The position numbers and the translations under genes were made by a program. Shown piece by piece: positions 27,690 through 49,212 of a stretch of DNA of 64,000 nt (positions are counted from its first letter, which is position 1; the number at the start of each line of letters is the position of its first letter). Below the pieces are notes generated by a model. That model made no database searches. It was not told the DNA's origin and saw only the letters and a list, made by a program, of their open reading frames with translations. The DNA comes from a virus: the IMG/VR virus record IMGVR_UViG_3300042445_001604, positions 19,367 through 83,366 of that record. The stretch is one strand, 5' to 3'.

Positions 27690-28290
27690 GCGAATTACTG
27701 ACAGCCAGCCAGCGATTACACTCACGCGACTAGCCAGCCAGCCCACTAGGCAGACAGCCCACTAGCCAACGCCTAGTGACAGCCAGCCCACCAGCCAGCG
27801 AGACAGAGTAGCCCACGACAGCCAGCCCATTACAGCCCATTACAGCCCACTAGACAGCCAGCCAGCCCACGACAGCCCACTAGCCCACGACAGCCCGTCA
27901 CAGCCCCGCCTAGCCCCGTTTACGACCGCCAGCCACGACAGCCCACGACAGCCCCAGAATAGGCACACCGCACGATTACGATAGCCAGCCACGACAGCCC
28001 GCCTACGCCTACGACCGACAGCCCCAGCCACCCGCCAGCCACCCGCTACCGTCACGCGACAGCCAGCCCACGACAGCCAGCCCCAACGCTCTCGCAACGC
28101 TCACGCGATAATGACAACGACAGCCCGACCACCACGACAGACAGACCACGCGACCGACCGACACAGATACAGACAGACCACCCACGACCACCAGACAGAC
28201 CGCGCAAAAACTTACCCGCACCCGCGCCGATACCCGCGCCCGACAGCCAGCCCGCGCCCGCACGGCAAGGCGCGACACGCCCGAGATAAA
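27690..28290. repeat. non-coding low-complexity repeat tract (CAGCC / GACAGCCCAC units), candidate terminus or origin region
   Basis: Dozens of imperfect CAGCC(A/C) units, strongly C/A-rich on the + strand, no credible ORF. Confidence 0.8.
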
Positions 28291-28376
28291 AAATAGTTTG
28301 TAATGTCAGCGGTATGGTGTATGTTAGGTACTACCGAGTTAGTCAACCGACATACTCACCAAACAAAGGAAACAAA

Positions 28377-28673
28377 ATGACGAACACCACCGTCCTCAAC
28401 GCCGAAGCCCAGCGGGCAGTATCGGCACTCGAAACCGCCCGCAAGATGGTTGCCGAAGCCAAGCGTATCGAAGACGCGGCAAAGGCAGTCCTCAACGAAG
28501 CACTCACCGAAGCCAACGCAACGCACGGCACGGACAGCAACGGCACGGTTCTCGTGGAGCGCGTGACCAGCACGAACACCTCGTTCGACCGCAAGACCCT
28601 CGAAGCGCTTTACAAGGAAGCATTCGACGCCACCATTCGCGTTACGACCTACACCAAACTCGTCACCAAGTAA
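28377..28673 (+). CDS. small coiled-coil protein, paralog of 39583..39870 and 42101..42394
   Basis: AAAGGA RBS, upstream promoter, downstream hairpin 28681-28702. Confidence 0.85.
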   Translation: MTNTTVLNAEAQRAVSALETARKMVAEAKRIEDAAKAVLNEALTEANATHGTDSNGTVLVERVTSTNTSFDRKTLEALYKEAFDATIRVTTYTKLVTK

Positions 28674-28990
28674 CGCCACCGCCCGCCCCGCAAGGGGCGG
28701 GCAACCCCAAGCCCACACCGCCACGACCTAGCCCCGAAGCCCCCCGCCAGCCCACCAGCCAGCGGGGGGTTTCGCGTTGCCCGCCCCAGCCACCGACACC
28801 AGCCCGCCACGACACCGCGCACACCGACCGCGTACGCCCGCGCACCGCGCACCGCGCCCCGCCACGCGCCCGCCACGCGCCCACGCCCGCCGACCCCGAA
28901 ACGCGCCCGACCGACCGCGCACACACCCGCGCCCCAAAGTATATGTTTTTTGAGCGACCGCGCCCACCACCCGCGCAACCACCGCGCTAC

Positions 28991-29019
28991 TTGCGAATGT
29001 CCGCGCTATGGTGTAGACT
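28991..29019 (+). promoter_or_regulatory. sigma-A-type early promoter
   Basis: TTGCGA-N17-TAGACT. Confidence 0.7.
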
Positions 29020-33557: not shown

Positions 33558-33714
33558 ACACCCACTATACCAAGTAACGTAGCGTTTGTCAAGTCGCAAG
33601 ATGAGCGTGTCGCCAACCCCCGCCCGCTACTCAAAAAACATATACTTTCCCCGACGCCCGTCGCAGGAAACACGGAAGCCCCCCACCCAAAGGTGAGGGG
33701 CTTCTTTGCGAGGA

Positions 33715-34945: not shown

Positions 34946-35473
34946 TTATGACTTTGATTTCAGCACTTGGTATGAGCCACCGTCGCCGTTCAGTTGGGGC
35001 ATATACCCGTACCGAGCCAGACGGAAACGGATACTCGCGGGCGTTACGCCCAACCGCTTTGCCAGACGATAAATTGTCACGCCCTCGACCGTCCGAGCGT
35101 GGTTGAGTAGTCGTGAAAACTCCTCGCCCTCTGCCCGAAACGCGGGAGATTTTCCGCGCACTTGGGAAGCGAGTGGACGCAATTCACGCAACCGCGCAAG
35201 TGTGTCCGCGTTCGGCTCGGTGTAAACGGGCTTCATCTTTTCGGCAACGACGGGCGGAAGCGGGATTTCGTCGAACACAATTCCAACGGTGTTTACCGTC
35301 GCAATTTGTCGTACTCGTTCCCGCGTAATTCCCGTTGCTTCGGATATGGACTGTAATGTCCAACCCGCGTTTCGTAGTGCTGTGATGTAATCGTTTCGTT
35401 CGTTGATACCTAGCGTTGTGAACTTTTCGTGGACTTCGCTAGGCAAGGTTAGGTTTGTTTTGCGAAACCGCAT
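34946..35473 (-). CDS. double helix-turn-helix DNA-binding protein (paralog of 26976..27491)
   Basis: AGWTLQSISEATGITRERVRQI and GVTIYRLAKRLGVTPASIRFRL. Confidence 0.8.
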   Translation of the reverse strand: MRFRKTNLTLPSEVHEKFTTLGINERNDYITALRNAGWTLQSISEATGITRERVRQIATVNTVGIVFDEIPLPPVVAEKMKPVYTEPNADTLARLRELRPLASQVRGKSPAFRAEGEEFSRLLNHARTVEGVTIYRLAKRLGVTPASIRFRLARYGYMPQLNGDGGSYQVLKSKS

Positions 35474-35587
35474 TGCTTGTGTCCTTTCGTTGATTATTAG
35501 TATTGACTTCACTAGCCTAACACGACCAAATAAAAAAGTCAAGCCCGCCACGCGCAACCGCACGACGGACTTGACTTTTGTTAGAGA

Positions 35588-36013
35588 CTATGCTAGAATT
35601 AGTTTGACTGTCCTGTCCCCAGCGAAAAGGGATTTTAGAAACTCTGCGTCGATTTCTCCGTCGCCCAACTTCTTATCGGCACGATACGCTTTCACCGCGT
35701 TGAGTGTCAATGCTTCGTAATAACCGGGCTTTGCTTGACGGACAATTTCGTAGCCCAAGTCAAACAAACGACGCTGAACTTGCCAAACCGACATTGACGT
35801 TTTGCTTTTTTTGTTCTCGAAAATAATGTTGCGCTCTAAAACTTCGACAAGTTCCGACGGCGCACTTTCCGCAGGACTTGTGACAGCAATTTCCTCGGCG
35901 GGTGTCGGCGCGATTTCTTCCTCGACTACCGCGAACATTTTGTCTTCGTCGGAAAGTACATCTTTTTTGAGTGACGACGGCGTGGTCGGCACGGGAGTTT
36001 TCTCATCTGACAT
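35588..36013 (-). CDS. peptidoglycan-binding-domain protein
   Basis: SVWQVQRRLFDLGY...GYYEALTLNAVKAYRADKKL..GEID (PG_binding_1-like). Confidence 0.7.
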   Translation of the reverse strand: MSDEKTPVPTTPSSLKKDVLSDEDKMFAVVEEEIAPTPAEEIAVTSPAESAPSELVEVLERNIIFENKKSKTSMSVWQVQRRLFDLGYEIVRQAKPGYYEALTLNAVKAYRADKKLGDGEIDAEFLKSLFAGDRTVKLILA

Positions 36014-36229: not shown

Positions 36230-36424
36230 TTACTCGTCGCGCAAAGCACGGCGCAACTTTGCCCCGCGTGTCCGCGCTCGGCGTTCACCCGCGTTGGCGT
36301 GTGTTCCTGCGCCGTTCCCGCGAGAACGCTCAACGATTACGGCGTTGAGTTCACGCGCGTGGGCGTTGCGAACAGACAAGTTCGCCATACCCAAGACGGG
36401 CTTTTGCTTTTTGTTCTTTGCCAT
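36230..36424 (-). CDS. small basic protein (64 aa)
   Basis: TTGACA..TATACT promoter, GAAAGGA RBS. Confidence 0.75.
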   Translation of the reverse strand: MAKNKKQKPVLGMANLSVRNAHARELNAVIVERSRGNGAGTHANAGERRARTRGAKLRRALRDE

Positions 36425-36518
36425 TTCGTTTCCTTTCTCGTGGCGTAGTTACAGTATACCATTTGGCTACTGCGTTGTCAAGTAAGAAAGGGGCGAGATT
36501 TCTCTCGCCCCCGACTTG

Positions 36519-36614
36519 TTAGTCATTCCAAGCGTGGCCCGGAAACGCTTGCTTCATTTCGCGTTCCCAGCAAGGGAAGCACTTTCCCTCGTCGTTGTGT
36601 TCGCAGTTCGTCAT
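36519..36614 (-). CDS. 31-aa Cys/His peptide (MTNCEHNDEGKCFPCW...)
   Basis: TTGACA..TAGACT promoter, ACGAAAGGA RBS, terminator. Confidence 0.7.
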   Translation of the reverse strand: MTNCEHNDEGKCFPCWEREMKQAFPGHAWND

Positions 36615-36727
36615 TGCGTGTCCTTTCGTTGTGGTGTACCACCAGTCTACTACATACCTACGACATTGTCAAGTACCGACGGCGCACCCGCGCTGGGGGA
36701 AAGTATATGTTTTTTGAGTACGGCGCG

Positions 36728-36894
36728 AAAAAAGAAACGCGAGAGATTTTTCTCCCGCGTTCCGATTTGTCAAGTTTAGGGTGAGCATTTGTTTCGAGCA
36801 GACGCACATACTCAGGTGCGGAGAGCCGTCTGTTATGTTGCTAAACTGTTCGGCTCTCTTACAGTTTAGGGTGGTAGCCCACACTTTGGCTACA
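36728..36894 (-). ncRNA. putative structured non-coding RNA (~165 nt, two predicted pseudoknots)
   Basis: TTGACA-N17-TAGTAT promoter (36928-36900), no RBS or ORF (begins ATG-TAG), several complementary segments, intrinsic terminator 36728-36763. Confidence 0.7.
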
Positions 36895-36929
36895 TCTAAA
36901 TACTAGCACACGGCAATCCAAATGTCAAG

Positions 36930-37217
36930 TTAGGACATTGGTGGTGTCGTCGTCAAGTCGTAGTTTCGGAAACGGACTTCGTGCGCGAACAACATCACTT
37001 CGGGATTTACGGTGGAGATAGTCGCAATCTCAACTATGTCGCCCTGAACCATATGCTTCACGACTTCCCGTGACAACGCTCGTGCTGGCGCGACAAAAAA
37101 CTTCCGCCCCTTTTCGTCCGCCATAAAGAATGAACCGACGAACCCAATGGTCATTGGATTTCGTAGCACTCGCCCCGCGAGTATGCTGGTCTTTTGGTCT
37201 GCTGAGTATTTTGCCAT
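36930..37217 (-). CDS. hypothetical protein (95 aa, leaderless)
   Basis: TTGACA-N17-TACCGT-N6-ATG. Confidence 0.7.
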   Translation of the reverse strand: MAKYSADQKTSILAGRVLRNPMTIGFVGSFFMADEKGRKFFVAPARALSREVVKHMVQGDIVEIATISTVNPEVMLFAHEVRFRNYDLTTTPPMS

Positions 37218-37336
37218 ACCCCGACGGTACAACATCACCCGCGCATTGTCAAGCCCCGCGTTACTCAAAAAAACTATACTTTTGATTTCCCGGCCAAAAA
37301 AGAAACGGGGGACTTTCGCCCCCCGCCCTTTCCTTT

Positions 37337-37552
37337 TTACTCGTCGATTTCGATACCGTTAGCGACGGCGATTTCGTTGAGCCACGCGAGCGCGTCCTGC
37401 CGAGCGCGAAGTCCTCGTCCGAAGTCCTCGCCCGTAAGACGCTTGACGACCGAGAGTGCGGGTTCACGGGTGAGCGTCATACGCGACGTGTCCCACGTCT
37501 TGATTTCGATTTTGAGTGCTTGGCGCATTAGCACCAATTGGATTTCGTTCAT
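37337..37552 (-). CDS. hypothetical protein (71 aa)
   Basis: TTGACA..TATACT promoter, ACGACGAAAGGA RBS. Confidence 0.8.
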   Translation of the reverse strand: MNEIQLVLMRQALKIEIKTWDTSRMTLTREPALSVVKRLTGEDFGRGLRARQDALAWLNEIAVANGIEIDE

Positions 37553-37744
37553 TTCACTTCCTTTCGTCGTGGTGTCTTGCTTTGTAGTTTCAGTATACAC
37601 CCCACCACCGACATTGTCAAGTCCTGACGAAAAAATCTTTTCTGACATAATCCCAAAAATCCAAAAGTATACCTTTTTTGAGCAACTGCCGACCGCGCAC
37701 GGGAAACCCGCCCGCGCTCTCGCGTGGGCGGGCGACCGCGCCGA

Positions 37745-37978
37745 TTAGGAGAGAGCGTCTGCTCGCTCGTGGAAAATCTCGGAGTGTGCGTCCATTGACT
37801 TCTTGATAATGGCGTCCACCGTGGCGATAACCGTCTGGACTTCGTCCTCGGAGAGCGTACGGTACTGGGCGGTGAACAGCGCGTTCATCATAGCCGACCG
37901 CGCGTCCGAAGCGCCGAAACCGTGCCCGAGAGCGTACATCATATTCCCGTGGCGGATAGTGTTGTCGAGAGTGTTCAT
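37745..37978 (-). CDS. hypothetical protein (77 aa)
   Basis: Promoter, AAAGGA RBS, terminator. Confidence 0.8.
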   Translation of the reverse strand: MNTLDNTIRHGNMMYALGHGFGASDARSAMMNALFTAQYRTLSEDEVQTVIATVDAIIKKSMDAHSEIFHERADALS

Positions 37979-38089
37979 TTTGTGTCCTTTGTTTGTGGTG
38001 ACTTGATACTCTCATCTTACCGGGCACCTACGACATTGTCAAGTCCATAGCCAAAAGAAAAAGCGGGGACATTTCTGCCCCCGCTAGTC

Positions 38090-38416
38090 CTAGCCCGCGT
38101 AGTTCACGCCGTAGTGCGCGTGGACGGCGTCGGGGAAACGGTTGTCCCGTAGGTACTGCTGACCGTCCGTCGTGAGCGTCACGTCAAGATACTGACCGCA
38201 ATCGCACGCCGTCGGGGAGTCGGACTCGATTTCTCCGAAGTGGTCGGAGTGAGCGTAAGCACCGCTCTCGTGTTCCGCCGTGAACGACGGGTACTCGAAG
38301 TGGAGTCCGTTTTCGGTGGCGTACTCGCGAGCGCATTTCTCGCACGCGATGGCGATGAAGTCGCCCGCCCCGTCACCGATTACCCACGGTTCCGTGATGA
38401 AAAGAATGTTGTCCAT
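38090..38416 (-). CDS. hypothetical Cys-containing protein (108 aa)
   Basis: CEKC...CDCG; AAAGGGGA RBS. Confidence 0.75.
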   Translation of the reverse strand: MDNILFITEPWVIGDGAGDFIAIACEKCAREYATENGLHFEYPSFTAEHESGAYAHSDHFGEIESDSPTACDCGQYLDVTLTTDGQQYLRDNRFPDAVHAHYGVNYAG

Positions 38417-38615
38417 TCTGTTCCCCTTTTCTTTGTAGTTATCAAGTCCAGCAATTGCTGGTAGTAACCACTTTACACTAGTTCGACCAAAAGCGCAATA
38501 CCAAAAATTCTCGGGCGTGTCACCCGCGCACCTACCGCGCACAAAAGTACACCTTTTTTGAGCGCACCGCGATAGGCGGGCGGGGCTTGCGCCCGCACCC
38601 GCCCGACCGCCCGCG

Positions 38616-38792
38616 TTAGCGGGTGACGGTCGCGCTGTCCAGCAATCGGCGAACAATCGCTTCAGCGGTGTCGCCGTCCGTTGCCCAGACGTCAACCCAG
38701 CCGAAACGGAAAAAGCGCAATGACGACATAGCGTCAATCTGCGCGATAGTGTTGTTCGACCAGATGACATATTCGGGAATGGTGTTGTCCAT
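38616..38792 (-). CDS. hypothetical protein (58 aa), paralog of 29062..29235
   Basis: YVIWS...FFRFGWVDVWAT. Confidence 0.8.
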   Translation of the reverse strand: MDNTIPEYVIWSNNTIAQIDAMSSLRFFRFGWVDVWATDGDTAEAIVRRLLDSATVTR

Positions 38793-38918
38793 TTTGTGTC
38801 CTTTGTTTGTGGTGACTTGCTTACAGTATGAGTATACCGCGTGTGTTTGTGTTTGTCAAGTTGTGGGGAGAGAGTGCGGGCGGGGAGATTATTCTCACCC
38901 GCCCGCGTAGCCACCACG

Positions 38919-39134
38919 CTACATCTTGATTGCGTAGACCTTCGTCTGACGCGCGTACCGAATAAGCGCAACCTTTACGCCTAGTTCGATTGAGTCCGAC
39001 TTGTTCGTCGCTTGTCCGTGTCCTGCCAGACCTTGTACGATAAAGTCCTTGTCCTCGTCCCAAGCCTTCTGAACTTCTGCTTGTGACTTGTAGTCGCGCC
39101 CGTAGGCGGGGACTAGATTTATTGTCGTGAACAT
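38919..39134 (-). CDS. hypothetical protein (71 aa)
   Basis: LVPAYGRDYKS motif; promoter and RBS. Confidence 0.8.
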   Translation of the reverse strand: MFTTINLVPAYGRDYKSQAEVQKAWDEDKDFIVQGLAGHGQATNKSDSIELGVKVALIRYARQTKVYAIKM

Positions 39135-39209
39135 TATGTTCCCTTCGTCGTGTGGTGTTTGGTATTTAGTTGTAGGTACAGTCTAGCGCATACTGCTCGA
39201 CTTGTCAAG

Positions 39210-39356
39210 TCAAGCGGGGAGTAAGTCCTCGAACGGGACGACCGCAAAATACGACTTGTCCCAATAGACCAGAGCCGTACCTGCGCTCGCGTCCTCAACT
39301 ACTTCTCCTACTGCCGTGAACGGGACGAGTCCCGTGTCGCCTATGTAGATGACCAT
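39210..39356 (-). CDS. hypothetical protein (48 aa)
   Basis: TTGACT..TAGAGT promoter, ACGACGAAGGGA RBS. Confidence 0.7.
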   Translation of the reverse strand: MVIYIGDTGLVPFTAVGEVVEDASAGTALVYWDKSYFAVVPFEDLLPA

Positions 39357-39582
39357 TGTGTTTCCCTTCGTCGTGTGGTGTGACTTGCTACTGCCACTCT
39401 ACTCTGACCGCAATCAAAAGTCAAGCGTCGCTGACGCGGGCGTGTCGTCACCGCGCACCGCGCTCGCTCAAAAAACCTATACTTTTGGACGGCGCAAGAG
39501 AATCCCCCGCGCGGACAAAGGGGAAACAAAACCGCGCGGGGGAAGTTTGGGGAGAGGGGACTTTCGTCCCCCCTCGGACGGC

Positions 39583-39870
39583 TTACGCCGTGACGAGAAC
39601 CGTGAAGTTCGTCGTCTTGGCGAGCGCGTTGTAAAGGTCGGCGTCGGCGTCCTTGAGGTCGCTTGCGCTGACGGTGACGCGCGTGCGCTCGCTCACCTTG
39701 AGGACGGTGACGCCCGCGAGGGTCGCAACCGTGGCGTCGCCGAGAATCTGGCGGATACGCGCCTCGGCGTCCTTCTTGGCGTTCTCCGCGTCGCGGATAA
39801 CCGCCTTGGCGTCCTCGAAGTCCTTGAGGGCTTTTGCGCCCTCGAGGTCGAGGGAGATGGTGTTCGTCAT
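39583..39870 (-). CDS. small coiled-coil protein, paralog family with 28377 and 42101
   Basis: Strong codon bias; C-terminal FTVLVTA identical to 42101..42394. Confidence 0.85.
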   Translation of the reverse strand: MTNTISLDLEGAKALKDFEDAKAVIRDAENAKKDAEARIRQILGDATVATLAGVTVLKVSERTRVTVSASDLKDADADLYNALAKTTNFTVLVTA

Positions 39871-40037
39871 TGTGGTAGTGCCTTTCGTTTGAGGGAGAGC
39901 CAATCTCGCCCTGTGATATCAGTATACATACGACCACGGACATTGTCAAGTCGAAACGCAAAAAACTTTTTTTATTTTTGACTTGACTTTGTCCGAGGAC
40001 TATGATACACTTATGGAACAACGACGAAAGGGAAAAA

Positions 40038-40145
40038 ATGAATTGCTCAACCTGCGAGAAGTCGCTCGAAACCGAAAACCACGAGCCTTGCGCTAATCTC
40101 CGATTTGCGCTCGCCATTCTCCAAGTTCCACTCCCCCGACGATAA
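40038..40145 (+). CDS. 35-aa Cys/His peptide, lone plus-strand cassette
   Basis: TTGACT-N17-TACACT promoter, ACGACGAAAGGGA RBS; MNCSTCEKSLETENHEPC... Confidence 0.65.
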   Translation: MNCSTCEKSLETENHEPCANLRFALAILQVPLPRR

Positions 40146-40295
40146 GGACGGCGCGAGCGGGCGGGCTTCGGCTCGCTCGCTTTCCCGCGCCCGCGCTCGG
40201 CGCGACAAAAGTACACCTTTTTTGAGCGAGTGCCCGCGCCCGCGAGCGGAAACGCGAAACGCCCGCACCTTTCGGCACGGGCGTCGCGTCGTCGG

Positions 40296-40481
40296 CTACT
40301 GAACGAACCAAGTCCCGACTTTGTTGCCATTCTCGTCCCGCGTCGTCCCGCCGATAATCGTCGAGCCGGGCGTGATGGAGAAATTGGCGACGGACTCCGC
40401 GACGCGCCGAATGGCGTCCGCGAGGTCGTGCTCGTCTTTCATTGCGTCATTCCCGAGGGAGATGGTGAGTTCGAACTTCAT
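40296..40481 (-). CDS. hypothetical protein (61 aa)
   Basis: MKFELTISLGNDA...RDENGNKVGTW; conserved RBS. Confidence 0.8.
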   Translation of the reverse strand: MKFELTISLGNDAMKDEHDLADAIRRVAESVANFSITPGSTIIGGTTRDENGNKVGTWFVQ

Positions 40482-40570
40482 TGTCTTACCTTTCGTCGTT
40501 GTGGTGTGTTGCTGTCTAACCATTGTAACACAGAGCGCGGACAAACACAAGTCTGCCCGCGCTCGGTGTG

Positions 40571-40768
40571 TCAAACGTCAGTCGAGTAGTCGAAAGACTG
40601 TTCGTGCGCTACGCCACAGTAGATACATTCCTCAACCGACGCGAGAGCGAATCCGCGCGGAAAGTATGTGTGAAGTGCGACCTGCGGGAAATAGTCATTC
40701 TCGTCCTCGGCGCACGCGCTAAAGATGAATTCCATTTCGTCTTGGTGAAGTGGCTCGTTGTTGTCCAT
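40571..40768 (-). CDS. hypothetical protein (65 aa)
   Basis: TTGCGA..TAGAGT promoter, conserved RBS. Confidence 0.75.
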   Translation of the reverse strand: MDNNEPLHQDEMEFIFSACAEDENDYFPQVALHTYFPRGFALASVEECIYCGVAHEQSFDYSTDV

Positions 40769-40962
40769 TGTGTTGCCTTTCGTCGTTGTGGTGTAGTACC
40801 ACTCTACCAGGGACTACCGACATTCGCAAGTCTGCCGAGCGTCGGCGCGTCGCCCCGCGCCCGCCAGCGGGCGAAAGTATACCTTTTTTGAGCGGGTGTC
40901 GGCGCGTGGCGGGCGACGGCGCGAGAAACGCGAGCGCGAGTTTCCCCGCGCCCGCGCGTCCC

Positions 40963-41379
40963 CTATTCCGCGTCCTCGTTGTTCGCGTCGAGCGTGAAAG
41001 TGAATACTCCCGTGCCCGTCGGCTCGTCGTGCGACCACCGCACGGCAGTCAGCGCAGTCCCGTCGAAACGGTATTCGATACGGTATTCCCCGTTGATAGT
41101 CATAGCCGAGTGAATATCCCGCGCCGATACCGACGCCCAGCCCGCGCGTCGTTGCCAGCCCATTCCCGTACCGTCAATACGGATAGTCGTCGCGTCGTCC
41201 GCGCCGATTACCGCGAGCCACGGCTTGTAGGCGTTCTCGATGAAGTCGTCCCACGCCGTGTCGTAGCACCCGAAACACTCCGTGCCGTCTGACGGGCGAA
41301 ACTCGCCAGTTTCCTCGTCGTAAATTTCACACTCGCACTCTGTGGTGAGTGTGACTGTGGTGAGCGTTGTTTCAGTCAT
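40963..41379 (-). CDS. hypothetical protein (138 aa)
   Basis: Conserved RBS; MGWQRRAG and SHDEPTG motifs. Confidence 0.8.
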   Translation of the reverse strand: MTETTLTTVTLTTECECEIYDEETGEFRPSDGTECFGCYDTAWDDFIENAYKPWLAVIGADDATTIRIDGTGMGWQRRAGWASVSARDIHSAMTINGEYRIEYRFDGTALTAVRWSHDEPTGTGVFTFTLDANNEDAE

Positions 41380-41432
41380 TCTGTCTTTCCTTTCGTCGTG
41401 TGGTGGTGCGTTGTCTTGCCAGTATAGCACAA

Positions 41433-41642
41433 TTACTTTCCGAGCGCAAGTCGCGCGTCCAATTTTGTTTCGATTAGTTTCAGCGTGAGAGCGTCCGCGC
41501 GTCCAGCGTCCGCGTAGGCGTATCCGCGTGAAGTGTCGTGCGCTTGGTGGATTACCGCACGATAAGTCCCGCCGACCTTGCCGAGATAGCGAACAACATA
41601 GTCCGCGCCCCTGTATGAGATAGTGACTTTGTGGTGTTTCAT
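41433..41642 (-). CDS. hypothetical protein (69 aa)
   Basis: ACAACGAAAGGA RBS. Confidence 0.7.
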   Translation of the reverse strand: MKHHKVTISYRGADYVVRYLGKVGGTYRAVIHQAHDTSRGYAYADAGRADALTLKLIETKLDARLALGK

Positions 41643-41814
41643 TGTCTTTCCTTTCGTTGTGTCTTGCGTGTATCTCCATTGTAGCGACGACCACGGACAC
41701 GAAACTAAATTGCCCGCGCGTCGTCCCGCGCGTCCCGCGCCACTCAAAAAACCTATACTTTCACCGCGCACGGCAGAAGCCCCACCCTTTCGGGTGAGGC
41801 GACCGCGCGAGGCG

Positions 41815-41994
41815 TTAGACCAGCGTCTGTGGCGCGACCGAGAAGTTCTCGATAAGGAATTCGTAGGCGCGAGCGCGACCCTCTGACCACTCTGCCATTA
41901 CGACCATACCGAGTTCCGCGTACCGCGCGGATTTGGTGCGGTTATCCTCTGCCATTTCTTTCAGAAGTGATAGGGGTACGGAGACCATTTCCAT
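41815..41994 (-). CDS. hypothetical protein (59 aa)
   Basis: TTGACA..TAGACT promoter, conserved RBS, terminator. Confidence 0.75.
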   Translation of the reverse strand: MEMVSVPLSLLKEMAEDNRTKSARYAELGMVVMAEWSEGRARAYEFLIENFSVAPQTLV

Positions 41995-42100
41995 TGTGTA
42001 TCCTTTCGTCGTGGTGTCGTTCATAAGTTCAGTCTAGCGCATTGTCCGCGCGTTGTCAAGTTGGGGAGAGAGGGCGCGTTTCCGCGCCCCCTCTGACCGC

Positions 42101-42394
42101 TTACGCGGTGACGAGGACGGTGAAGTCCGTGACCTTTGCGAGGCGGTTGTAGAGTGCTTCGTCCGCTTCTTTGACCGCGCTGGCGGTAATCGAAACGCGT
42201 GTCCGTGCGCTTACGCGAACGGCGGTGATGCCCGCAATCGTGCCAGCGGTAGCCGTGCCGAGAGCCTCGCGGATAACTGCTTCCGCTTCGGTCTTGACTG
42301 CTTCCGCTTCGCGGATAACGCGCTTCGCTTCCTCGAAGCGGTGGAGTGCGCTGACCGCTTCTAGGTCGAACGCGACGGTGGTCGTGGTGTCCAT
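42101..42394 (-). CDS. small coiled-coil protein, paralog family with 28377 and 39583
   Basis: High similarity to 39583..39870. Confidence 0.85.
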   Translation of the reverse strand: MDTTTTVAFDLEAVSALHRFEEAKRVIREAEAVKTEAEAVIREALGTATAGTIAGITAVRVSARTRVSITASAVKEADEALYNRLAKVTDFTVLVTA

Positions 42395-42642
42395 TCTGTA
42401 TTTCCTTTCGTTGAGGGAGAGCCAATCTCGCCCTATGTCATTGAGTTTAGCGTATGTCGTTTTGTTTGTCAAGTCCATTCGCAAACTTTCTTTATTGAGT
42501 TATGTCGAAAGTCTATCCGCGACCACGGACACGAAACTCGACCGCGCACGGCGACGGCGAAAAGTATACCTTTTTTGAGCGACCGCACGGCGCGGAAAAC
42601 GACGAACGCCCTGCCCTTTCGAGCAGAGCGTCCGCGCGTTGG

Positions 42643-42993
42643 TTAGGAGAGCGGTGCGCCAGCGTAGAGCAAGTCCGCGACCAATTCCGCGACCTGCTCG
42701 TCAGTCAGACCGAGAGTTTCGCCGTCGTCGTCCGCGCCACCCGTGATGATAGCGTTTCCGACGATTACATCTACCGCGCCGAACGCCGATACGAATAACC
42801 GAGTTGCGAGAACATTCGGCGCAAGTCCGTCGAGTTTCCCTTCCTCGTTTACCCAGAGCGTCAGACCGCTCGGAAGCGATACCGCTTCAATCATTCCGCC
42901 GACCGCACGAGAGAGCGTCGCGTATGACACAAACTCGTCCGTGTCCTGCTCGACCTCGACAGTGCTGTCGGTGGTCAGTACTACTGCTTTCAC
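42643..42993 (-). CDS. DUF3846-like protein
   Basis: LSRAVGGMIEAV...LWVNEEGKLDGLAPNVLAT...IVGNAIITG. Confidence 0.8.
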   Translation of the reverse strand: MKAVVLTTDSTVEVEQDTDEFVSYATLSRAVGGMIEAVSLPSGLTLWVNEEGKLDGLAPNVLATRLFVSAFGAVDVIVGNAIITGGADDDGETLGLTDEQVAELVADLLYAGAPLS

Positions 42994-43163
42994 TTTGTTT
43001 CCTTTCGTCGTGTGTTTGTCCTGCCCTATCAGTATAGCGACTATCTCGCCACTTGTCAAGTCTGACCGCACGATAGTTTTGCGGGCGCGTCGCCACTCAA
43101 AAAACCTATACTTTCGAGCGACGAAAAAAGGACGGGCGCTTTCGCGCCCGCCCCCGTCACCCG

Positions 43164-43301
43164 TTAGAGAAACTCAATCGGGTCGCGGTCCTCGAAAATA
43201 TCTTCGAGTTCCGAGAGCGAAAACCCGTCAGAGTTTTCCCAGAAGTCCGAGAGTGCTTCGCGGATACGGTCGCCCTGCTCGTCGGTCGTGTGCTTGTCCA
43301 T
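43164..43301 (-). CDS. 45-aa acidic peptide
   Basis: Conserved RBS; MDKHTTDEQ...ELEDIFEDRDPIEFL. Confidence 0.7.
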   Translation of the reverse strand: MDKHTTDEQGDRIREALSDFWENSDGFSLSELEDIFEDRDPIEFL

Positions 43302-43343
43302 TGTGTCACCGTCCTTTCGTCGTGTCGTGGTGTACTACCCACC

Positions 43344-43616
43344 TTACACTATGACGGTCGGTCTGTCAAGTTCACCCGTCAAGTGGTCGAGTTCGGTCAT
43401 CACCACGCCAGCACGGGCGAGTATCTGCCCGACGGTCACACCTAACGCGCTCGCCACCCGTTCGAGTAGTTCGCTGGACATTTCCTTTTTTCCGTGCTCG
43501 ACGTTGTTCAGGTGTCCGACGGCAACGTGAGCGAGCGACGCCACCGTTACTCCGTAGAGTTGTTGCTCGGTTCGCATTTCGCGTATCGTGTACCCGACGG
43601 CTTCTCTCATCAGCAT
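43344..43616 (-). CDS. XRE-family HTH regulator, ClgR-like
   Basis: MLMREAVGYTIREMR...HLNNVEHGKKEMSSELLERVASALGV resembles actinobacterial ClgR. Confidence 0.75.
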   Translation of the reverse strand: MLMREAVGYTIREMRTEQQLYGVTVASLAHVAVGHLNNVEHGKKEMSSELLERVASALGVTVGQILARAGVVMTELDHLTGELDRPTVIV

Positions 43617-43620
43617 ACGG

Positions 43621-43917
43621 TTACAATACCACGCGGTCGAGTGCGTCGTCGAAGAAGTCCTCGGCGAGTCCTGAGAAGGCGCTCGCCGTTGTGCTGAAAG
43701 AGTAGACGGCTCGGTCGGTCGAGTCGAGTACGCACTTGGCGAGTACCGCGCTTCGCGCAATCGCGTCGGGCAGACTGGCGTACCATTCGTCCCACGCGTT
43801 CACCACGCCGTCGTCCCACGCCAAACGGTAGCCGTTCTCACCGTCGTCGAGTTCGGTAATCGTCACCCGCGCGTCGTCCACGGGGAAGTCAATCAGAAGT
43901 TGCTCGTCGTATCCCAT
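43621..43917 (-). CDS. hypothetical acidic protein (98 aa)
   Basis: TAATG-coupled to the upstream gene. Confidence 0.75.
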   Translation of the reverse strand: MGYDEQLLIDFPVDDARVTITELDDGENGYRLAWDDGVVNAWDEWYASLPDAIARSAVLAKCVLDSTDRAVYSFSTTASAFSGLAEDFFDDALDRVVL

Positions 43918-44330
43918 TACTCGCCGTCCTTCCAAAGGTCGCCGTCCGCGCCGTAATGTTTCCAAAGCACCTCGGCTTGGGCAATCGCTTCGTCGAGTTC
44001 GTGAAAGACTTCGTTCAGGTCTTGGTCGCCGTCCTTGCGAGAGCAAACCTCAAACCACGGGTTGTTGTCCCAAATGAAGTAGTCCTCGCCCTTGTCCGCG
44101 AACGCTTGGAGTTCCGCGTCCGTGTTGATACCGAAGTCCCGCAGGTCGTCGGTGTACCGCACGACCGAGTATTCGTCGTCAGTTGATTTGCGAATGTTGA
44201 TTCGCATTTCACCATTCCGCGCGACATAGAAGCGCGGGTCGGGGAGAGTGCTGTCTTGCCAAACGATTTCGTAGTCGCTCGACCAAGTGTAGAAGCAAGC
44301 GTCTTGCTCGTACTGCTTGACTTCACTCAT
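43917..44330 (-). CDS. hypothetical acidic protein (137 aa)
   Basis: TAATG-coupled; WDNNPWFE motif. Confidence 0.8.
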   Translation of the reverse strand: MSEVKQYEQDACFYTWSSDYEIVWQDSTLPDPRFYVARNGEMRINIRKSTDDEYSVVRYTDDLRDFGINTDAELQAFADKGEDYFIWDNNPWFEVCSRKDGDQDLNEVFHELDEAIAQAEVLWKHYGADGDLWKDGE

Positions 44331-44467
44331 TAGTCCACCTCGCAGAAGTGGTTTGCCATTGAGATTTCGAGTTCCTCGGAAGTCGCGCCCTTGTCGTCCT
44401 TGCCACAGTTGTCGCAAGTCACCGCGTAGGTCACGCCCTCTGTCGGAGTGTGTGGGTTTAGTTCCAT
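44330..44467 (-). CDS. small CxxC..HxC protein (45 aa)
   Basis: Conserved RBS. Confidence 0.7.
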   Translation of the reverse strand: MELNPHTPTEGVTYAVTCDNCGKDDKGATSEELEISMANHFCEVD

Positions 44468-44546
44468 TGTGTTTCCTTTCGTCGTTTGTTTTTCCATTGT
44501 AGCAGGAAAGGGGACGGGACGCAAATCGCGCCCCGCCCCGCGTGTC

Positions 44547-44984
44547 TTACACGAACATCATTGAGGTTACGAGCGTGTCCTCTTTGTGGTCGTTGTGGTA
44601 CGAGGTCGTGGACTTCGAGAAGTCAACCTCGATACACCGCGCGTCAGTCAAGTTCCACTCCCACGCAATCCCGTAGCGGGTCAGCGCGGAGATGACGAGT
44701 TCGCCGTACACGGAGAGAGTTCCGTCGTCCGCGACCAAGCCGTCGTGGTTGAAGAAAACGGTACGCGCTTCGTGGTAGTCGTTTCCCGACTTGTGGTAAG
44801 CGTCGTCGCCCGAGATGTTCACGGACTGTCCCTGACCGCCGAACGACCAAATCGTGGCGGGGTTGGTGTGCTCACCGAGGTCGGCGCACGAACGGCAACA
44901 CGATACGACATTTCGTCGAACGCGAACGCCACCTGCGCGGAGTTCCTTGCTGAACTGCTTGACTCGAGTTTCGAGGTTTTCCAT
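44547..44984 (-). CDS. hypothetical protein with CCxxC motif (145 aa)
   Basis: TTGACA..TACAAT promoter, conserved RBS. Confidence 0.8.
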   Translation of the reverse strand: MENLETRVKQFSKELRAGGVRVRRNVVSCCRSCADLGEHTNPATIWSFGGQGQSVNISGDDAYHKSGNDYHEARTVFFNHDGLVADDGTLSVYGELVISALTRYGIAWEWNLTDARCIEVDFSKSTTSYHNDHKEDTLVTSMMFV

Positions 44985-45071
44985 TTTGTTTCCTTTCGTC
45001 GTGTGTCTTGCTGTTCTTTTATTGTAGCACAGGTGACGGACATTTGTCAAGTCCGCCACCCGCGCGTGTCG

Positions 45072-45236
45072 CTAGACGATTTCGTCCGCGTAGTCAATCG
45101 TGAACTCTCCACCAACCGCGTCGAACTCGTCCATTGACATTCCACGAGCAATCTCAATCGCTTCGTCTGGGTCGTTGGCTTCGACAGTTGTGTTGTAGTT
45201 CACAATCCGCGTTGCTGTGATTTCGTACTTTGCCAT
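45072..45236 (-). CDS. DpnD/PcfM-like small protein (54 aa)
   Basis: MAKYEITATR...VEANDPDEAIEIAR pattern; promoter and RBS. Confidence 0.7.
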   Translation of the reverse strand: MAKYEITATRIVNYNTTVEANDPDEAIEIARGMSMDEFDAVGGEFTIDYADEIV

Positions 45237-45386
45237 TGTGGCTTCCTTTCGTCGTTGTAGTCAGTATAGCAGTTATCCCCGACAAGTCAAATTCATTTTG
45301 CTCGGCGCGTCGTGGTCGAAAAAGTATACCTTTTTTGAGCGAGGCGCGAACGGGCGAAGCGGGCTTCCGCCCGCCCCGCGCGTTGG

Positions 45387-45746
45387 CTATCGGTTCATCT
45401 CGAAAGACGGGTCGCACTTGTAGCAGTACGCTTCGTACCCGTCGCGGTCAATCGGCTTCCCGCAGTCGTCGCAGAGGATACCAGCGGTGAACGGTTCTAC
45501 CGCGCTTTTCATCTGGACGGCTTCCACCCAGTCGGCTTCGACGGTCTGCTCGGAGAAGCACGACGGGCAGAGAAGTCGTCCGTCGTCGGTCAGCGTTTGC
45601 TCGCCAAAGAAGTTCGCGCAGTCCACGCAGTCAAAGATGAATACGAGGTTCTTGCGCTCGCCGTCTTTAAGTTCGGTCTGGTACTGAAACCAGTCCGTGT
45701 CGCAGGTCACGCAGTCGAAGTTGTTCCAGTCGTGTTGGTGTGTCAT
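45387..45746 (-). CDS. multi-CxxC Zn-finger protein (119 aa)
   Basis: Five CxxC pairs; conserved RBS. Confidence 0.8.
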   Translation of the reverse strand: MTHQHDWNNFDCVTCDTDWFQYQTELKDGERKNLVFIFDCVDCANFFGEQTLTDDGRLLCPSCFSEQTVEADWVEAVQMKSAVEPFTAGILCDDCGKPIDRDGYEAYCYKCDPSFEMNR

Positions 45747-45836
45747 TGTGCTTCCTTTCGTCGTGTGTTTGTGTTGCTATCTCTCTATCATAGCCACGAG
45801 AGGCGAGGTTGTCAAGTCCTCGCCCCTCGCGTGTCG

Positions 45837-46205
45837 CTATGCCCAGACGATAGTTGCGTTCTGAACGCCGTCCTTTGTGAACCGCCACATCTCGCCGTCC
45901 TCGCCACGGAACGACATTGCGCTATCGCCTATCGCGTGACGGAGAATGGTGTGGAGAAACACTTCGGTAATCGTGTGCCACTTGCTGTCGAAAGCGTTGA
46001 GAACGAACTCGTCGCTGTCGTACATAAAGTCGAACCCCCTCGCCAATACTTCCTGTTCGAGGTCAGTCGGAATGTCCACCGACCACATAGCCATTTCCGA
46101 GTTGTTGTGCTCCTCGTATGTCTTGGCGAGGTCGGCAAGTACCGCTTCTTTTTGGTCGGTGGGGATAATGATGTTCCCCTCGTGATGAACTGCGTAGTAA
46201 CCCAT
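45837..46205 (-). CDS. hypothetical protein (122 aa)
   Basis: FRGEDGEMWRF motif; conserved RBS. Confidence 0.8.
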   Translation of the reverse strand: MGYYAVHHEGNIIIPTDQKEAVLADLAKTYEEHNNSEMAMWSVDIPTDLEQEVLARGFDFMYDSDEFVLNAFDSKWHTITEVFLHTILRHAIGDSAMSFRGEDGEMWRFTKDGVQNATIVWA

Positions 46206-46291
46206 TGTGTATCCTTTCGTCGTTTGTTTGGTGCTGTCTGACTATGGTAGCACGATTGGGCGCGGAAGTCAAACTCCCACGCCCCACCGTG

Positions 46292-46828
46292 TTATCCGTC
46301 CTCGCCCAGAGCCTCGTCGCGCAAGCGAATGTGCTCGGCTAGGTCGTCGGGGTCAATGTCGGTTGTGTACCCACACTCGTCGCACGATACCGTTTCGGCT
46401 TCGAGGTTCACCGTGCCCATAGTTCCCTCGTGCTGGCAGGTGACGGTGAGAGGCGGGTTGAGGTATCGGTTCGCAATGGCGCTCGCCGTACCAGCGCGTT
46501 GCTCGTCGGTTGCGTTCTCGACCTCTGCCCAGTCCTCGTCCGTCCACTCGCTCGTGTCAATGACTTCGAGGTTTTGTGCCGTGCCGAATGAACCGTCGGT
46601 GGCGAAATAGGTGCTCGCCCGTTCGGGTATGAGAAGGTGTCCCAGTTTCGCGCTGACGCGACTATCGAACTCGTCCTCGCCGTCACCGTCGGGGCGTACC
46701 CACTCCTCGCTGTCGTTGTCCCACCACGACGCCGTGCCAATGCGTGACATTAGCAGTTCGTCGTCCACCCAGAAGTTGCCGTTCTCGGTGTCGTAAAAGA
46801 CCGTGAAGTAAATCTGCTTGCTCGCCAT
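46292..46828 (-). CDS. acidic hypothetical protein (178 aa)
   Basis: AGGAGA RBS; operon with two upstream small genes. Confidence 0.8.
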   Translation of the reverse strand: MASKQIYFTVFYDTENGNFWVDDELLMSRIGTASWWDNDSEEWVRPDGDGEDEFDSRVSAKLGHLLIPERASTYFATDGSFGTAQNLEVIDTSEWTDEDWAEVENATDEQRAGTASAIANRYLNPPLTVTCQHEGTMGTVNLEAETVSCDECGYTTDIDPDDLAEHIRLRDEALGEDG

Positions 46829-46830
46829 TG

Positions 46831-47007
46831 TTACTTCTCCTCTGCTTTGTATTCGTCAAGGAAACGGAGAACGAAAAGGTATGCTTCCTCTGCGCCCTTT
46901 GCGTATGAGTAGTCAAGACCGTCGCCGTCAAGGTCGGTGTCCTGTTGTTCCGTAGCAAAGATATCTGCTTGTCGCGTGAGAAAGTCACGCAGTTCTTGTT
47001 CATTCAT
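46831..47007 (-). CDS. hypothetical protein (58 aa)
   Basis: MNEQELRDFL...; fills the operon gap, GAAGGA RBS. Confidence 0.7.
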   Translation of the reverse strand: MNEQELRDFLTRQADIFATEQQDTDLDGDGLDYSYAKGAEEAYLFVLRFLDEYKAEEK

Positions 47008-47009
47008 TG

Positions 47010-47156
47010 TTACTGTCCTTCCGTGAGTTGGTTGTAGATGTTCTCGAACGCCTCGCGCGCAAACTGGTCGGGGTCGTTCTCGTCGAGGAACTGACCAATA
47101 AAGCCAGTCAGAATGTCCGCGTGGATTTCGGGGACGGTGATGTTGATGTTATTCAT
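47010..47156 (-). CDS. hypothetical protein (48 aa)
   Basis: TTGACA..TATGAT promoter, conserved RBS. Confidence 0.75.
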   Translation of the reverse strand: MNNINITVPEIHADILTGFIGQFLDENDPDQFAREAFENIYNQLTEGQ

Positions 47157-47236
47157 TTGCTTTCCTTTCGTCGTTTGGATAGTTCTATCATAGCGAACGC
47201 GAGGGCGAATGTCAAGTCCGCCCCCGCGTGTTGCCA

Positions 47237-47560: not shown

Positions 47561-47637
47561 TTTGTATCCTTTCGTCGTTTGTGTTTTTATAATAGCAGGT
47601 TTGGGTGGCGAAGTCAAATCCTCGCCACCCGCGCCTG

Positions 47638-48123: not shown

Positions 48124-48211
48124 TTCATTTCCTTTCGTCGTTTGTTGTTGGTGCGGAGTGCTACCGCATTAGTTTTACAATAGCACCCCGCGTTGGGAAT
48201 GTCAAGTCCGA

Positions 48212-49204: not shown

Positions 49205-49212
49205 TGTGTCCG

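What the first reader, a model, noticed from the sequence alone, without database searches (positions are those of the whole stretch)
36728..36928. Cassette expressing a ~165-nt non-coding RNA with two predicted pseudoknots
Seen (minus strand): promoter TTGACA-N17-TAGTAT and an intrinsic terminator enclose no RBS or ORF. Pairings: GUAGCC/GGCUAC (36893-36888/36879-36874). CUAAACUGU/ACAGUUUAG (36869-36861/36849-36841), whose loop GAGAGCCG complements CGGCUCUC (36828-36821). That segment is bulged from a second stem CAGAC..GCAC/GUGC-GUCUG, whose loop UGAGUAU complements downstream AUGCUCA (36788-36782). An 11-nt direct repeat CACCCUAAACU flanks the folded core (36873-36863, 36783-36773). Inference: an early phage sRNA, for example a pseudoknotted type III antitoxin mimic, protein decoy or ribozyme. 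I do not recognise it as a known family.
Basis: partly seen in the sequence, partly recalled or inferred. Interest (0 to 1): 0.8.

Follow-up and report, generated by a model that had tools for sequence, protein, structure and literature searches.

The report
Orphan ORF-less small-RNA cassette in lake actinophage
One slot in a lake phage's array of one-gene expression units holds a strong promoter and terminator around about 165 bases with no gene, so it probably makes a small non-coding RNA, but it has no relatives, its proposed pseudoknots are unproven and its function is unknown.

Summary
The promoter is at 36928-36900 and the terminator at 36763-36734. All five helices and the 11-nt direct repeat are there. 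Of about 33 promoter units in this early array, this is the only one with neither the conserved Shine-Dalgarno leader nor a leaderless ATG. The only ORFs run through the terminator and have no homologues. A discrete non-coding transcript of about 165 nt is therefore likely.

The structural claims are weaker.
- A nested fold explains the RNA with three plain hairpins.
- The "pseudoknot" helices P2 and P3 have about zero probability in that model.
- Crossing helix pairs of this size occur at chance frequency genome-wide (3 seen, 1.9 expected).
- The core fold z-score (about -1.8) sits at the 26th percentile of the array.

No homologue was found in any collection searched. Three relatives that share the flanking gene carry protein genes in this slot. 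Lake metagenomes hold only near-identical copies, so covariation cannot be tested. No RNA data were available.

Verdict: a plausible orphan phage sRNA gene whose mechanism is open; transcribed recombination debris is a serious rival. The scan had noted this same stretch before, but nothing like it on other DNA.

The parts
36900..36928 (-). Promoter: -35 TTGACA (36928-36923), 17-nt spacer with TG, -10 TAGTAT (36905-36900). The predicted start is near G36893.
   Evidence: The same promoter (TTGACA-N17-TAGTAT) follows the orthologous upstream gene in L003, where it drives a small protein gene. The start site is inferred, not observed.
36764..36893 (-). 130-nt non-coding cargo (RNA nt 1-130) with no Shine-Dalgarno leader, no leaderless ATG and no ORF that ends before the terminator.
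   Evidence: ATG-TAG lies 4 nt after the -10. The cargo shows no likeness to the slot genes of relatives or to the rest of the genome.
36874..36893 (-). P1 hairpin GUAGCC-AAAGUGUG-GGCUAC (RNA nt 1-20).
   Evidence: Base-pair probability is about 0.9.
36863..36873 (-). Direct repeat copy 1, CACCCUAAACU (RNA nt 21-31). It is largely single-stranded in the minimum-energy fold (nt 31 pairs in a short outer helix) and partly sequestered if P2 forms.
36841..36869 (-). P2: CUAAACUGU / ACAGUUUAG, a 9-bp hairpin with an 11-nt loop (RNA nt 25-53).
   Evidence: Its probability is about 0 in the nested ensemble, and forcing it costs 3.4 kcal/mol.
36821..36858 (-). GAGAGCCG (36858-36851) / CGGCUCUC (36828-36821), an 8-bp G+C-rich helix.
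   Evidence: Base-pair probability is 0.98 to 1.0.
36799..36832 (-). P3: CAGACG/CGUCUG plus GCAC/GUGC (RNA nt 62-95). It overlaps the 3' strand of the previous helix by two bases.
   Evidence: Probability is 0.02 or less.
36782..36814 (-). UGAGUAU (36814-36808) / AUGCUCA (36788-36782), 7 bp with one G-U pair.
   Evidence: Probability is 0.72 to 0.96. The only population variant seen, 36814 A>G on the + strand (U80C in the RNA), removes its terminal pair.
36773..36783 (-). Direct repeat copy 2, CACCCUAAACU (RNA nt 111-121). It runs straight into ACTTGACAAAT, which looks like a -35 element without a usable -10.
36724..36763 (-). Intrinsic terminator GGAACGCGGGAGA-AAAA-UCUCUCGCGUUUC followed by a U-run.
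   Evidence: Hairpin energy is -20.7 kcal/mol.
36700..36718 (-). One copy of the array's 19-bp site CTCAAAAAACATATACTTT, in the spacer after the terminator. It is context, not part of the RNA.
   Evidence: families D4, D7, D9, D12. The spacer is nearly identical in L003, where it follows a protein-gene terminator.
36644..36672 (-). Next unit's own promoter, which drives a 31-aa Cys-rich peptide gene (36614-36519).
   Evidence: It shows that the downstream gene does not depend on read-through from the RNA unit.

Best explanation
The stretch is a self-contained early transcription unit of an uncultivated freshwater actinobacteriophage.

**How it is built**
- A host sigma-A/sigma-70-type promoter (36928-36900) starts transcription near 36893.
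- A strong intrinsic terminator (36763-36734) stops it near 36727.
- The product is an RNA of about 165 nt that is not translated.
- The unit is the accessory 'cargo' of one slot in an array of interchangeable promoter-gene-terminator cassettes. In this phage lineage the cargo is an RNA instead of a small protein.

**Most likely fold and action**
- The best-supported fold is three plain hairpins: P1, GAGAGCCG/CGGCUCUC and UGAGUAU/AUGCUCA.
- This fold leaves the two copies of CACCCUAAACU largely single-stranded, one upstream and one downstream of the two inner hairpins.
- My preferred mechanism is that the RNA acts in trans through these two exposed copies. It would work as a two-site decoy or sponge for a host or phage RNA-binding factor, or as a two-seed antisense regulator.
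- The alternative helices P2 and P3 may add pseudoknots or a second conformation.

**Shown:** the promoter, the terminator, the absence of any translatable ORF, the uniqueness of the unit within the array, the helices and the repeats.

**Inferred:** that it is transcribed, that transcription is early, and that the RNA has a function at all.

**My odds**
- Discrete non-coding transcript: about 0.75.
- Selected RNA function: about 0.45 (this is the confidence figure given for this explanation).
- The specific two-site decoy or seed mechanism: about 0.2.
For: - The promoter and terminator match the array's other units.
- About 33 minus-strand promoters lie between 32.9 and 49.9 kb. Every real one is followed by the leader ACGAAAGGA-N6-8-ATG or by a leaderless ATG 6 nt after the -10. 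This unit has neither.
- The same scan of the closest relative G001 found no other ORF-less unit.
- The promoter is orthologous to one that drives a protein gene in L003, so it is probably active.
- The 71-aa ORF through the terminator has no Shine-Dalgarno sequence, no homologue and no Pfam hit. It also overlaps a spacer that is non-coding in L003.
- The three hairpins have pair probabilities of 0.72 to 1.0.
- The co-occurrence of an 11-nt direct repeat and two helices of 8 bp or more is rare in random sequence, about 5e-5 per 130-mer.
- Near-identical copies are present in at least 11 lake-water runs dated 2019 to 2024. Only one variant was seen among the four runs laid.
Against: - No homologue exists anywhere, so there is no conservation or covariation evidence.
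- Three relatives that share the flanking gene hold protein genes in this slot.
- Core fold stability is ordinary for this array, at the 26th percentile.
- The crossing-helix topology is at chance level.
- The 3' part of the cargo carries a -35-like ACTTGACAAAT with no -10, which looks like a recombination scar.
- No convincing target was found in the phage. The best lead is one 14-nt complement, with a chance expectation of about 0.07.
Confidence: 0.45

Rival explanations
1. Transcribed debris. The array evolves by swapping cargo between conserved promoters, terminators and spacers. This slot would hold a non-functional leftover of such recombination or of gene decay. It is transcribed because its promoter and terminator are intact, but the RNA does nothing.
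For: - Mosaic junctions are visible. Identity to L003 stops at the -10 and resumes at the terminator and spacer.
- L092 and L093 carry yet another cargo. A run-X8 contig shares only the spacer.
- The cargo contains a -35-like ACTTGACAAAT without a -10, and ATG-TAG sits right after the -10.
- It is an orphan. Its fold stability is ordinary.
Against: - The cargo resembles neither the slot genes of relatives nor anything else in the genome, so no source for the 'debris' is visible.
- Its internal repeats are far denser than in random sequence.
- A strong promoter firing on junk would be costly in a compact array where every other unit carries a gene.
- The stretch is unchanged across lake samples from 2019 to 2024, although that may only reflect a young clone.
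Confidence: 0.35
2. A cis-acting RNA element rather than a trans-acting sRNA. One form would be a conformational switch: ACAGUUUAG can pair with either copy of CUAAACU, and CGGCUCUCCGC can pair with the terminator's 5' strand. Another form would be a put-like antitermination signal. Either would set how much transcription reads through the terminator into the downstream units.
For: - Mutually exclusive helices exist: P2 against GAGAGCCG/CGGCUCUC, and a 7-bp alternative 47-53:115-121.
- The element sits in an array full of terminators.
- The segment UCUCCGC is partly complementary to GCGGGAGA in the terminator (read from the sequence).
Against: - The downstream gene has its own consensus promoter.
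- The same spacer and promoter follow a protein-gene terminator in L003.
- The candidate antiterminator, 7 bp with a bulge, is far weaker than the 13-bp terminator at -20.7 kcal/mol.
- No Rfam riboswitch or leader matches.
Confidence: 0.1
3. One reading: the RNA mimics a host type III antitoxin (pseudoknotted, cut at the flanking repeats by a ToxN-like toxin), or it is a self-cleaving ribozyme.
For: - An H-type pseudoknot (P2 with GAGAGCCG/CGGCUCUC; loops of 2, 1 and 12 nt) flanked by repeated single-stranded tails recalls ToxI units (PMC5086642).
- Phage PhiTE carries a pseudo-ToxI (PMC3475682, listed but not read; the details are from my own knowledge).
Against: - There is no tandem array. 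The two 11-nt copies are 90 nt apart, more than twice the repeat length of known antitoxins (from my own knowledge). There is no internal periodicity.
- No ToxN-like gene lies nearby.
- A scan of 185,579 species' genomes for paired copies of the 11-mer found only unrelated minisatellites.
- No ribozyme family reaches even E = 10.
Confidence: 0.04
4. It encodes a protein after all: the 71-aa GTG ORF 36884..36669 or the 49-aa ORF 36807..36658, translated through a leaky terminator.
For: Both frames are open. The two CACCCTAAACT copies are 90 nt apart, so they lie in the same frame.
Against: - There is no Shine-Dalgarno leader, in a genome where 23 or more genes share one.
- The ORFs cross a 13-bp terminator, the 19-bp site and the next promoter. 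These are conserved in L003 behind an unrelated gene that stops before them.
- There is no homologue and no Pfam hit.
Confidence: 0.03

Closest known systems
Early, abundant non-coding RNAs of cluster A mycobacteriophages (L5, D29, StarStuff; PMC5712189)
   Same: They come from an actinobacteriophage and are driven by an early lytic promoter. The transcribed region has no conserved ORF, and the function is unknown.
   Different: Those RNAs come from a region of about 500 bp at the genome's right end (Pleft) or from an intergenic region. They are conserved among cluster A phages and were seen by RNA-seq and Northern blot. This one is a 165-nt promoter-to-terminator unit inside a cassette array, an orphan, and unobserved as RNA. 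It has no sequence likeness to any deposited phage.
Type III antitoxin RNAs (ToxI, CptI, antiQ) and the phage PhiTE pseudo-ToxI mimic (PMC5086642, PMC3475682)
   Same: Both involve a small non-coding RNA followed by a Rho-independent terminator, a possible H-type pseudoknot with single-stranded tails, and a phage-borne copy as a counter-defence precedent.
   Different: This RNA has no tandem repeat array. Its repeat spacing is 90 nt, against about 34-45 nt in known antitoxins (from my own knowledge). No toxin gene is nearby. The host antitoxin it would mimic is unknown.
RNA anti-CRISPRs (Racr: solitary CRISPR-repeat units on phages; from my own knowledge, not checked in a paper here)
   Same: Both are stand-alone, promoter-driven small structured RNAs in a phage accessory region that act as decoys for host proteins.
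   Different: Racrs are recognised by likeness to a host CRISPR repeat. Here no CRISPR-like repeat was identified, and the 11-mer pair occurs in prokaryote genomes only in unrelated minisatellites.
Phage HK022 put RNAs (cis-acting antitermination stem-loops; from my own knowledge)
   Same: Both are structured RNAs transcribed directly from an early promoter, upstream of terminators.
   Different: The put elements are two stem-loops of about 70 nt in total that act on the transcribing polymerase and are not followed at once by a strong terminator. Nothing here could test such an activity.

Membership tests
Stand-alone small-RNA gene (promoter + intrinsic terminator, untranslated) | Own promoter of the host type | tested here: met
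   TTGACA-N17-TAGTAT with TG, 10 of 12 matches. An orthologous promoter drives a protein gene in L003.
Stand-alone small-RNA gene (promoter + intrinsic terminator, untranslated) | Rho-independent terminator that closes the unit | tested here: met
   13-bp stem, 4-nt loop and a U-run at 36763-36724.
Stand-alone small-RNA gene (promoter + intrinsic terminator, untranslated) | No translatable ORF inside the unit | tested here: met
   No Shine-Dalgarno leader and no leaderless ATG. The only ORFs cross the terminator. No homologue or domain.
Stand-alone small-RNA gene (promoter + intrinsic terminator, untranslated) | A discrete transcript is observed | not testable with these tools
   No RNA run holds the stretch.
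Stand-alone small-RNA gene (promoter + intrinsic terminator, untranslated) | Structure conserved with compensatory changes in homologues | tested here: inconclusive
   No homologue by blastn, DNA patterns or a covariance model in any collection. Population copies are near-identical, with one variant.
Type III toxin-antitoxin antitoxin RNA, or a phage mimic of one | Tandem array of direct nucleotide repeats (PMC5086642) | tested here: not met
   Tandem Repeats Finder finds none. There are only two 11-nt copies, 90 nt apart.
Type III toxin-antitoxin antitoxin RNA, or a phage mimic of one | ToxN/AbiQ/CptN-type endoribonuclease gene after the terminator (required for a TA locus, not for a mimic) | tested here: not met
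   The downstream gene is a 31-aa Cys-rich peptide with its own promoter. Neighbouring proteins have no such domain.
Type III toxin-antitoxin antitoxin RNA, or a phage mimic of one | Pseudoknotted fold of the unit | tested here: inconclusive
   The helices exist. However, the topology is at chance level and is not favoured in the nested ensemble. No pseudoknot-capable predictor or probing was available.
Type III toxin-antitoxin antitoxin RNA, or a phage mimic of one | Sequence likeness to the host's antitoxin | not testable with these tools
   The host is unknown. A GTDB scan for the paired 11-mer gave only unrelated minisatellites.
Any Rfam family (ribozymes, riboswitches, leaders, known sRNAs) | Covariance-model match | tested here: not met
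   Nothing on the minus strand of 36727-36893 even at E <= 10.
tRNA / tmRNA | Cloverleaf or tmRNA detected | tested here: not met
   ARAGORN finds 0 genes in the window.
Transcription attenuator or riboswitch leader | The terminator controls a downstream gene that has no promoter of its own | tested here: not met
   The downstream gene has a consensus promoter at 36672-36644. The same spacer and promoter follow a protein gene in L003.

The most novel reading that the evidence does not exclude
The RNA is the first member of a new class of structured phage counter-defence RNAs. A double-pseudoknotted core would display two identical single-stranded CACCCUAAACU arms and would trap or mis-assemble a host immune ribonucleoprotein or endoribonuclease in freshwater Actinobacteria. 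It would travel as a swappable cassette alongside small anti-host proteins.
Probability: 0.07. Interest if true: 0.8.

Novelty: new member of a known kind. Interest (0 to 1): 0.3.

Why it matters
If the RNA is real and functional, it would show that the interchangeable early cassettes of these abundant lake actinophages can carry RNA effectors as well as tiny proteins. It would also give a defined 165-nt candidate for an RNA-based host-takeover or anti-defence function, in a phage group with no experimental system. As things stand it is a single unreplicated sequence with no expression data. Its present value is as a well-delimited candidate for a metatranscriptome look-up or a heterologous test, not as a discovery.

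Tried and rejected
**Searches for homologues, all negative**
- blastn of 901 bases against deposited phages.
- tblastn of the upstream protein against the same phages.
- The phage's own genome.
- The closest relative G001.
- Fifty records of portal relatives by blastn.
- Thirty-three records by a covariance model built from the single sequence.
- Three IMG/VR pattern scans. Their hits were unrelated AT-rich phage coding sequence or tandem repeats.
- A metagenome scan anchored on the upstream protein. It found two more relatives, both with a protein gene in the slot.
- A scan of 185,579 species' genomes for paired copies of the 11-mer. All 21 hits are CTAAACT-type minisatellites in unrelated taxa.
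- A protein search with the 71-aa ORF.

**Expression**
- No RNA holder is listed among the sequencing runs. This says nothing about expression.

**Population variation**
- Four lake or sediment runs were laid. Their contigs are short and near-identical, with one variant, so there is nothing to use for covariation.

**Targets**
- k-mer complementarity to the phage genome gave one 14-mer, with a chance expectation of about 0.07.
- A duplex-energy scan gave scores no better than shuffled queries and odd structures. I do not rely on it (both hit the time limit).

**Decayed gene**
- Local alignment of the cargo to the slot genes of L003 and L092, and to the phage's own genome, scored no better than shuffles.

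**Considered and dropped on reading the sequence**
- MITE or transposon insertion with a target duplication: there are no terminal inverted repeats.
- Hammerhead core: the sequence is CUGAGUA, not CUGANGA, and there is no stem II.
- CRISPR-repeat mimic: no repeat-length identity.
- Replication origin or DNA unwinding element: the stretch is not AT-rich.
- Retron, omega RNA or guide RNA: no partner gene is nearby.

Full report
**Context**

The window is the right-hand 64 kb of an 83,366-base IMG/VR virus record, judged about 49% complete. Its portal protein is 60-69% identical to those of Actinomycetia phage DSL-LC01 and of the Microbacterium phages Pumpernickel and Cece. Weaker matches go to Arthrobacter and Gordonia phages. 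DSL-LC01 was assembled from a lake metagenome and is predicted to infect Actinomycetia (PMC10611076). The stretch itself occurs in many lake-water metagenome runs. The source is therefore an uncultivated freshwater actinobacteriophage. The host assignment is an inference.

**The array around the finding**

Between about 28 and 50 kb the genome is a chain of one-gene expression units. Region 35.5-38.5 kb alone has 10 sigma-70-type promoter matches against 1.3 expected. It also has 13 terminator-like hairpins against 4.1 expected.

Three repeated modules organise the array:
- The promoter, with extended consensus ACTTGACA-N17-TAnnnT.
- A stereotyped leader, CACGACGAAAGGAAAC-N-ATG, in 23 copies.
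- A 19-bp site, CTCAAAAAAnnTATACTTT, which occurs in both orientations.

I listed every minus-strand promoter from 32.9 to 49.9 kb. Each real one is followed either by that leader and an ORF or by a leaderless ATG six bases after the -10. A second, stricter scan of the whole genome agreed. The only promoter-to-terminator unit with no contained ORF is the one at 36928. The same scan found no such unit in the closest relative G001.

**Checking the observation**

- The promoter is at 36928-36900 and the terminator at 36763-36734.
- The 6-, 9-, 8- and 6-bp perfect helices are there.
- The 7-bp helix UGAGUAU/AUGCUCA, with one G-U pair, is there.
- The 11-mer CACCCTAAACT occurs exactly twice in the window.
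- I also found a 7-bp alternative pairing between ACAGUUUAG and the second copy of the repeat.
- The only ORFs on this strand are GTG-initiated frames of 71 and 49 aa. Both run through the terminator, the 19-bp site and the next promoter.
- The bases just after the -10 read TTAG-ATG-TAG, so there is no leaderless gene either.

**Is the structure more than chance?**

The answer is mixed.
- The whole transcript folds at -52.9 kcal/mol with z = -4.2. That figure is the terminator's doing.
- The 130-nt core gives z = -1.9, with 6 of 200 shuffles folding as well. The opposite strand gives z = -1.6.
- Against 260 windows of 130 nt on the same strand of the array, the core is ordinary. The background mean is z = -1.14, and 26% of windows score as low or lower.
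- In the nested ensemble, P1, GAGAGCCG/CGGCUCUC and UGAGUAU/AUGCUCA have pair probabilities of 0.72 to 1.0. P2 and P3 have 0.02 or less. A fold forced to contain P2 is only 3.4 kcal/mol worse.
The other two could be pseudoknot partners or an alternative conformation.
- The geometry of a P2 x GAGAGCCG/CGGCUCUC H-type pseudoknot (loops of 2, 1 and 12 nt) is tight but feasible. This judgement rests on general knowledge of pseudoknots, not on a test.
- Crossing pairs of perfect helices of 8 bp or more within 130 nt number 3 in the genome against 1.9 in Markov simulations. The topology alone carries no weight.
- What does exceed chance is the density of internal repeats. An 11-nt direct repeat plus two helices of 8 bp or more occurs in about 1 of 20,000 random 130-mers and at only three loci in the genome.

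**Relatives**

No homologue of the cargo was found. The searches are listed under Tried and rejected.

Three relatives share the upstream 112-aa gene at 76-77% identity.
- In L003 the same promoter, identical through TAGTAT, drives a Cys-rich peptide gene of about 38 aa with a Shine-Dalgarno sequence. Similarity resumes at the terminator. The 60-nt spacer with the 19-bp site, and the next -35, are almost identical to the window.
- L092 and L093 have a terminator, a different promoter and another protein gene there.

The slot is therefore a site of cargo exchange, and the RNA cargo is specific to this lineage. The cargo shows no likeness beyond shuffles to those slot genes or to anything else in its genome. 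It is not a recognisable decayed copy of them.

Lake metagenome contigs from four runs are near-identical. They show one change, 36814 A>G on the + strand, which is U80C in the RNA. It removes the terminal pair of UGAGUAU/AUGCUCA, in one contig of depth 3.5. No RNA run was available.

**Known families**

Rfam gives nothing on this strand even at E = 10, and ARAGORN finds nothing.

The review PMC5086642 defines a type III locus as a tandem repeat array, then a terminator, then a ToxN-like gene. Here there is no tandem array. The downstream gene is a 31-aa peptide with its own promoter, and no neighbour has a relevant domain. A phage-borne mimic would need only likeness to a host antitoxin. That cannot be tested without the host. 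The 90-nt spacing is more than twice the known repeat lengths (from my own knowledge).

**What I think it is**

The anatomy makes a discrete, untranslated RNA of about 165 nt likely; I put this at 0.75. Whether that RNA does anything is open.

In favour of function:
- It is the only geneless unit in a compact array.
- It has a consensus promoter.
- Its internal repeats are far denser than chance.
- In the best-supported fold, two identical 11-nt segments lie largely single-stranded, one upstream and one downstream of the two inner hairpins.

That layout suggests a two-site decoy or a two-seed regulator. I commit to this as the most likely mechanism, at about 0.2. Any RNA function gets about 0.45.

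Against function:
- It is an orphan.
- Its fold stability is ordinary.
- No target was found.
- The second repeat copy runs into ACTTGACAAAT, which matches the array's extended -35 consensus but has no usable -10. That is what a recombination scar would look like.

Transcribed debris gets about 0.35, a cis-acting switch about 0.1, and the antitoxin-mimic, ribozyme and coding readings a few percent each.

**Verdict**

This is a real and well-delimited ORF-less expression unit, and probably a small-RNA gene. Stand-alone phage sRNA genes are a known kind, and this one belongs to no known family. Interest is modest until a transcript or a homologue is found.

The scan had noted this same stretch once before (e1-6054152), but nothing similar on other DNA.

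Noticed in passing
window 28900-49100, e.g. 36700-36718, 37261-37281, 33627-33647: A 19-bp site, CTCAAAAAAnnTATACTTT, recurs more than 20 times in both orientations, mostly just after terminators. It contains a TATACT hexamer. It may be a binding site or a promoter for a phage factor.
   Followed up: partly
window 36413-49880 (23 copies): A stereotyped 5' leader, CACGACGAAAGGAAAC-N-ATG, is shared by most early genes. A global translational or RNA-level control could read it.
   Followed up: partly
window 37217-37268: The 112-aa ORF called from TTG 37268 probably starts at the leaderless ATG 37217, giving 95 aa. Its first 17 'residues' are the translation of the gene's own promoter (TTGACA 37252 ... 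TACCGT), which explains why they are 'conserved' in L003. Leaderless starts 6 nt after the -10 also occur at 33592 and 33397.
   Followed up: partly
window 61111-61124: RNA nt 7-20 (the P1 loop plus its 3' arm) is perfectly complementary over 14 nt to the minus-strand mRNA of ORF 60969-61571 (200 aa, unknown function). The site is also present in relative G001, which lacks the RNA. The chance expectation is about 0.07.
   Followed up: partly
window 34946-35473: A 175-aa protein has two sigma-70 region-4-like helix-turn-helix motifs (best Pfam E-value 8e-07). It is a candidate reader of the 19-bp site or a transcription factor for the array.
   Followed up: no
window 46038-46162; about 40815-40975; about 42225-42385: Other spots have unusual internal repeats. 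One is a crossing pair of 9- and 10-bp perfect helices inside a coding unit. Two loci combine direct repeats of 10-14 nt with two or more 8-bp helices.
   Followed up: no
window 27800-29000: A G+C-rich tract (0.62) has strong strand skew (GC skew -0.23, AT skew +0.32) and degenerate CAGCCAGCCCACGACAGCC-type repeats. It lies at the border between the structural genes and the array.
   Followed up: no
window 35571-35599 (+ strand) and G001 36489 (+): A plus-strand promoter-like site, TTGACT-N17-TAGAAT, is conserved in the relative. It points antisense into the gene for the protein with a peptidoglycan-binding domain. It overlaps a 20-bp hairpin (35578-35535) whose stem also contains the next unit's -35.
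   Followed up: no
window 39890-39925 and 42410-42445: Two units share a 5'-UTR hairpin, GGGCGAGAUUGGCUCUCCC. The GAGA/UCUC theme also recurs in many terminators and in the RNA's GAGAGCCG/CGGCUCUC helix.
   Followed up: no
window 9110-15760 and 16824-23573: Two giant minus-strand ORFs of 2216 and 2249 aa. The first carries PHROG matches annotated portal protein, head maturation protease and virion structural protein in its middle third. The second matches no PHROG family.
   Followed up: no
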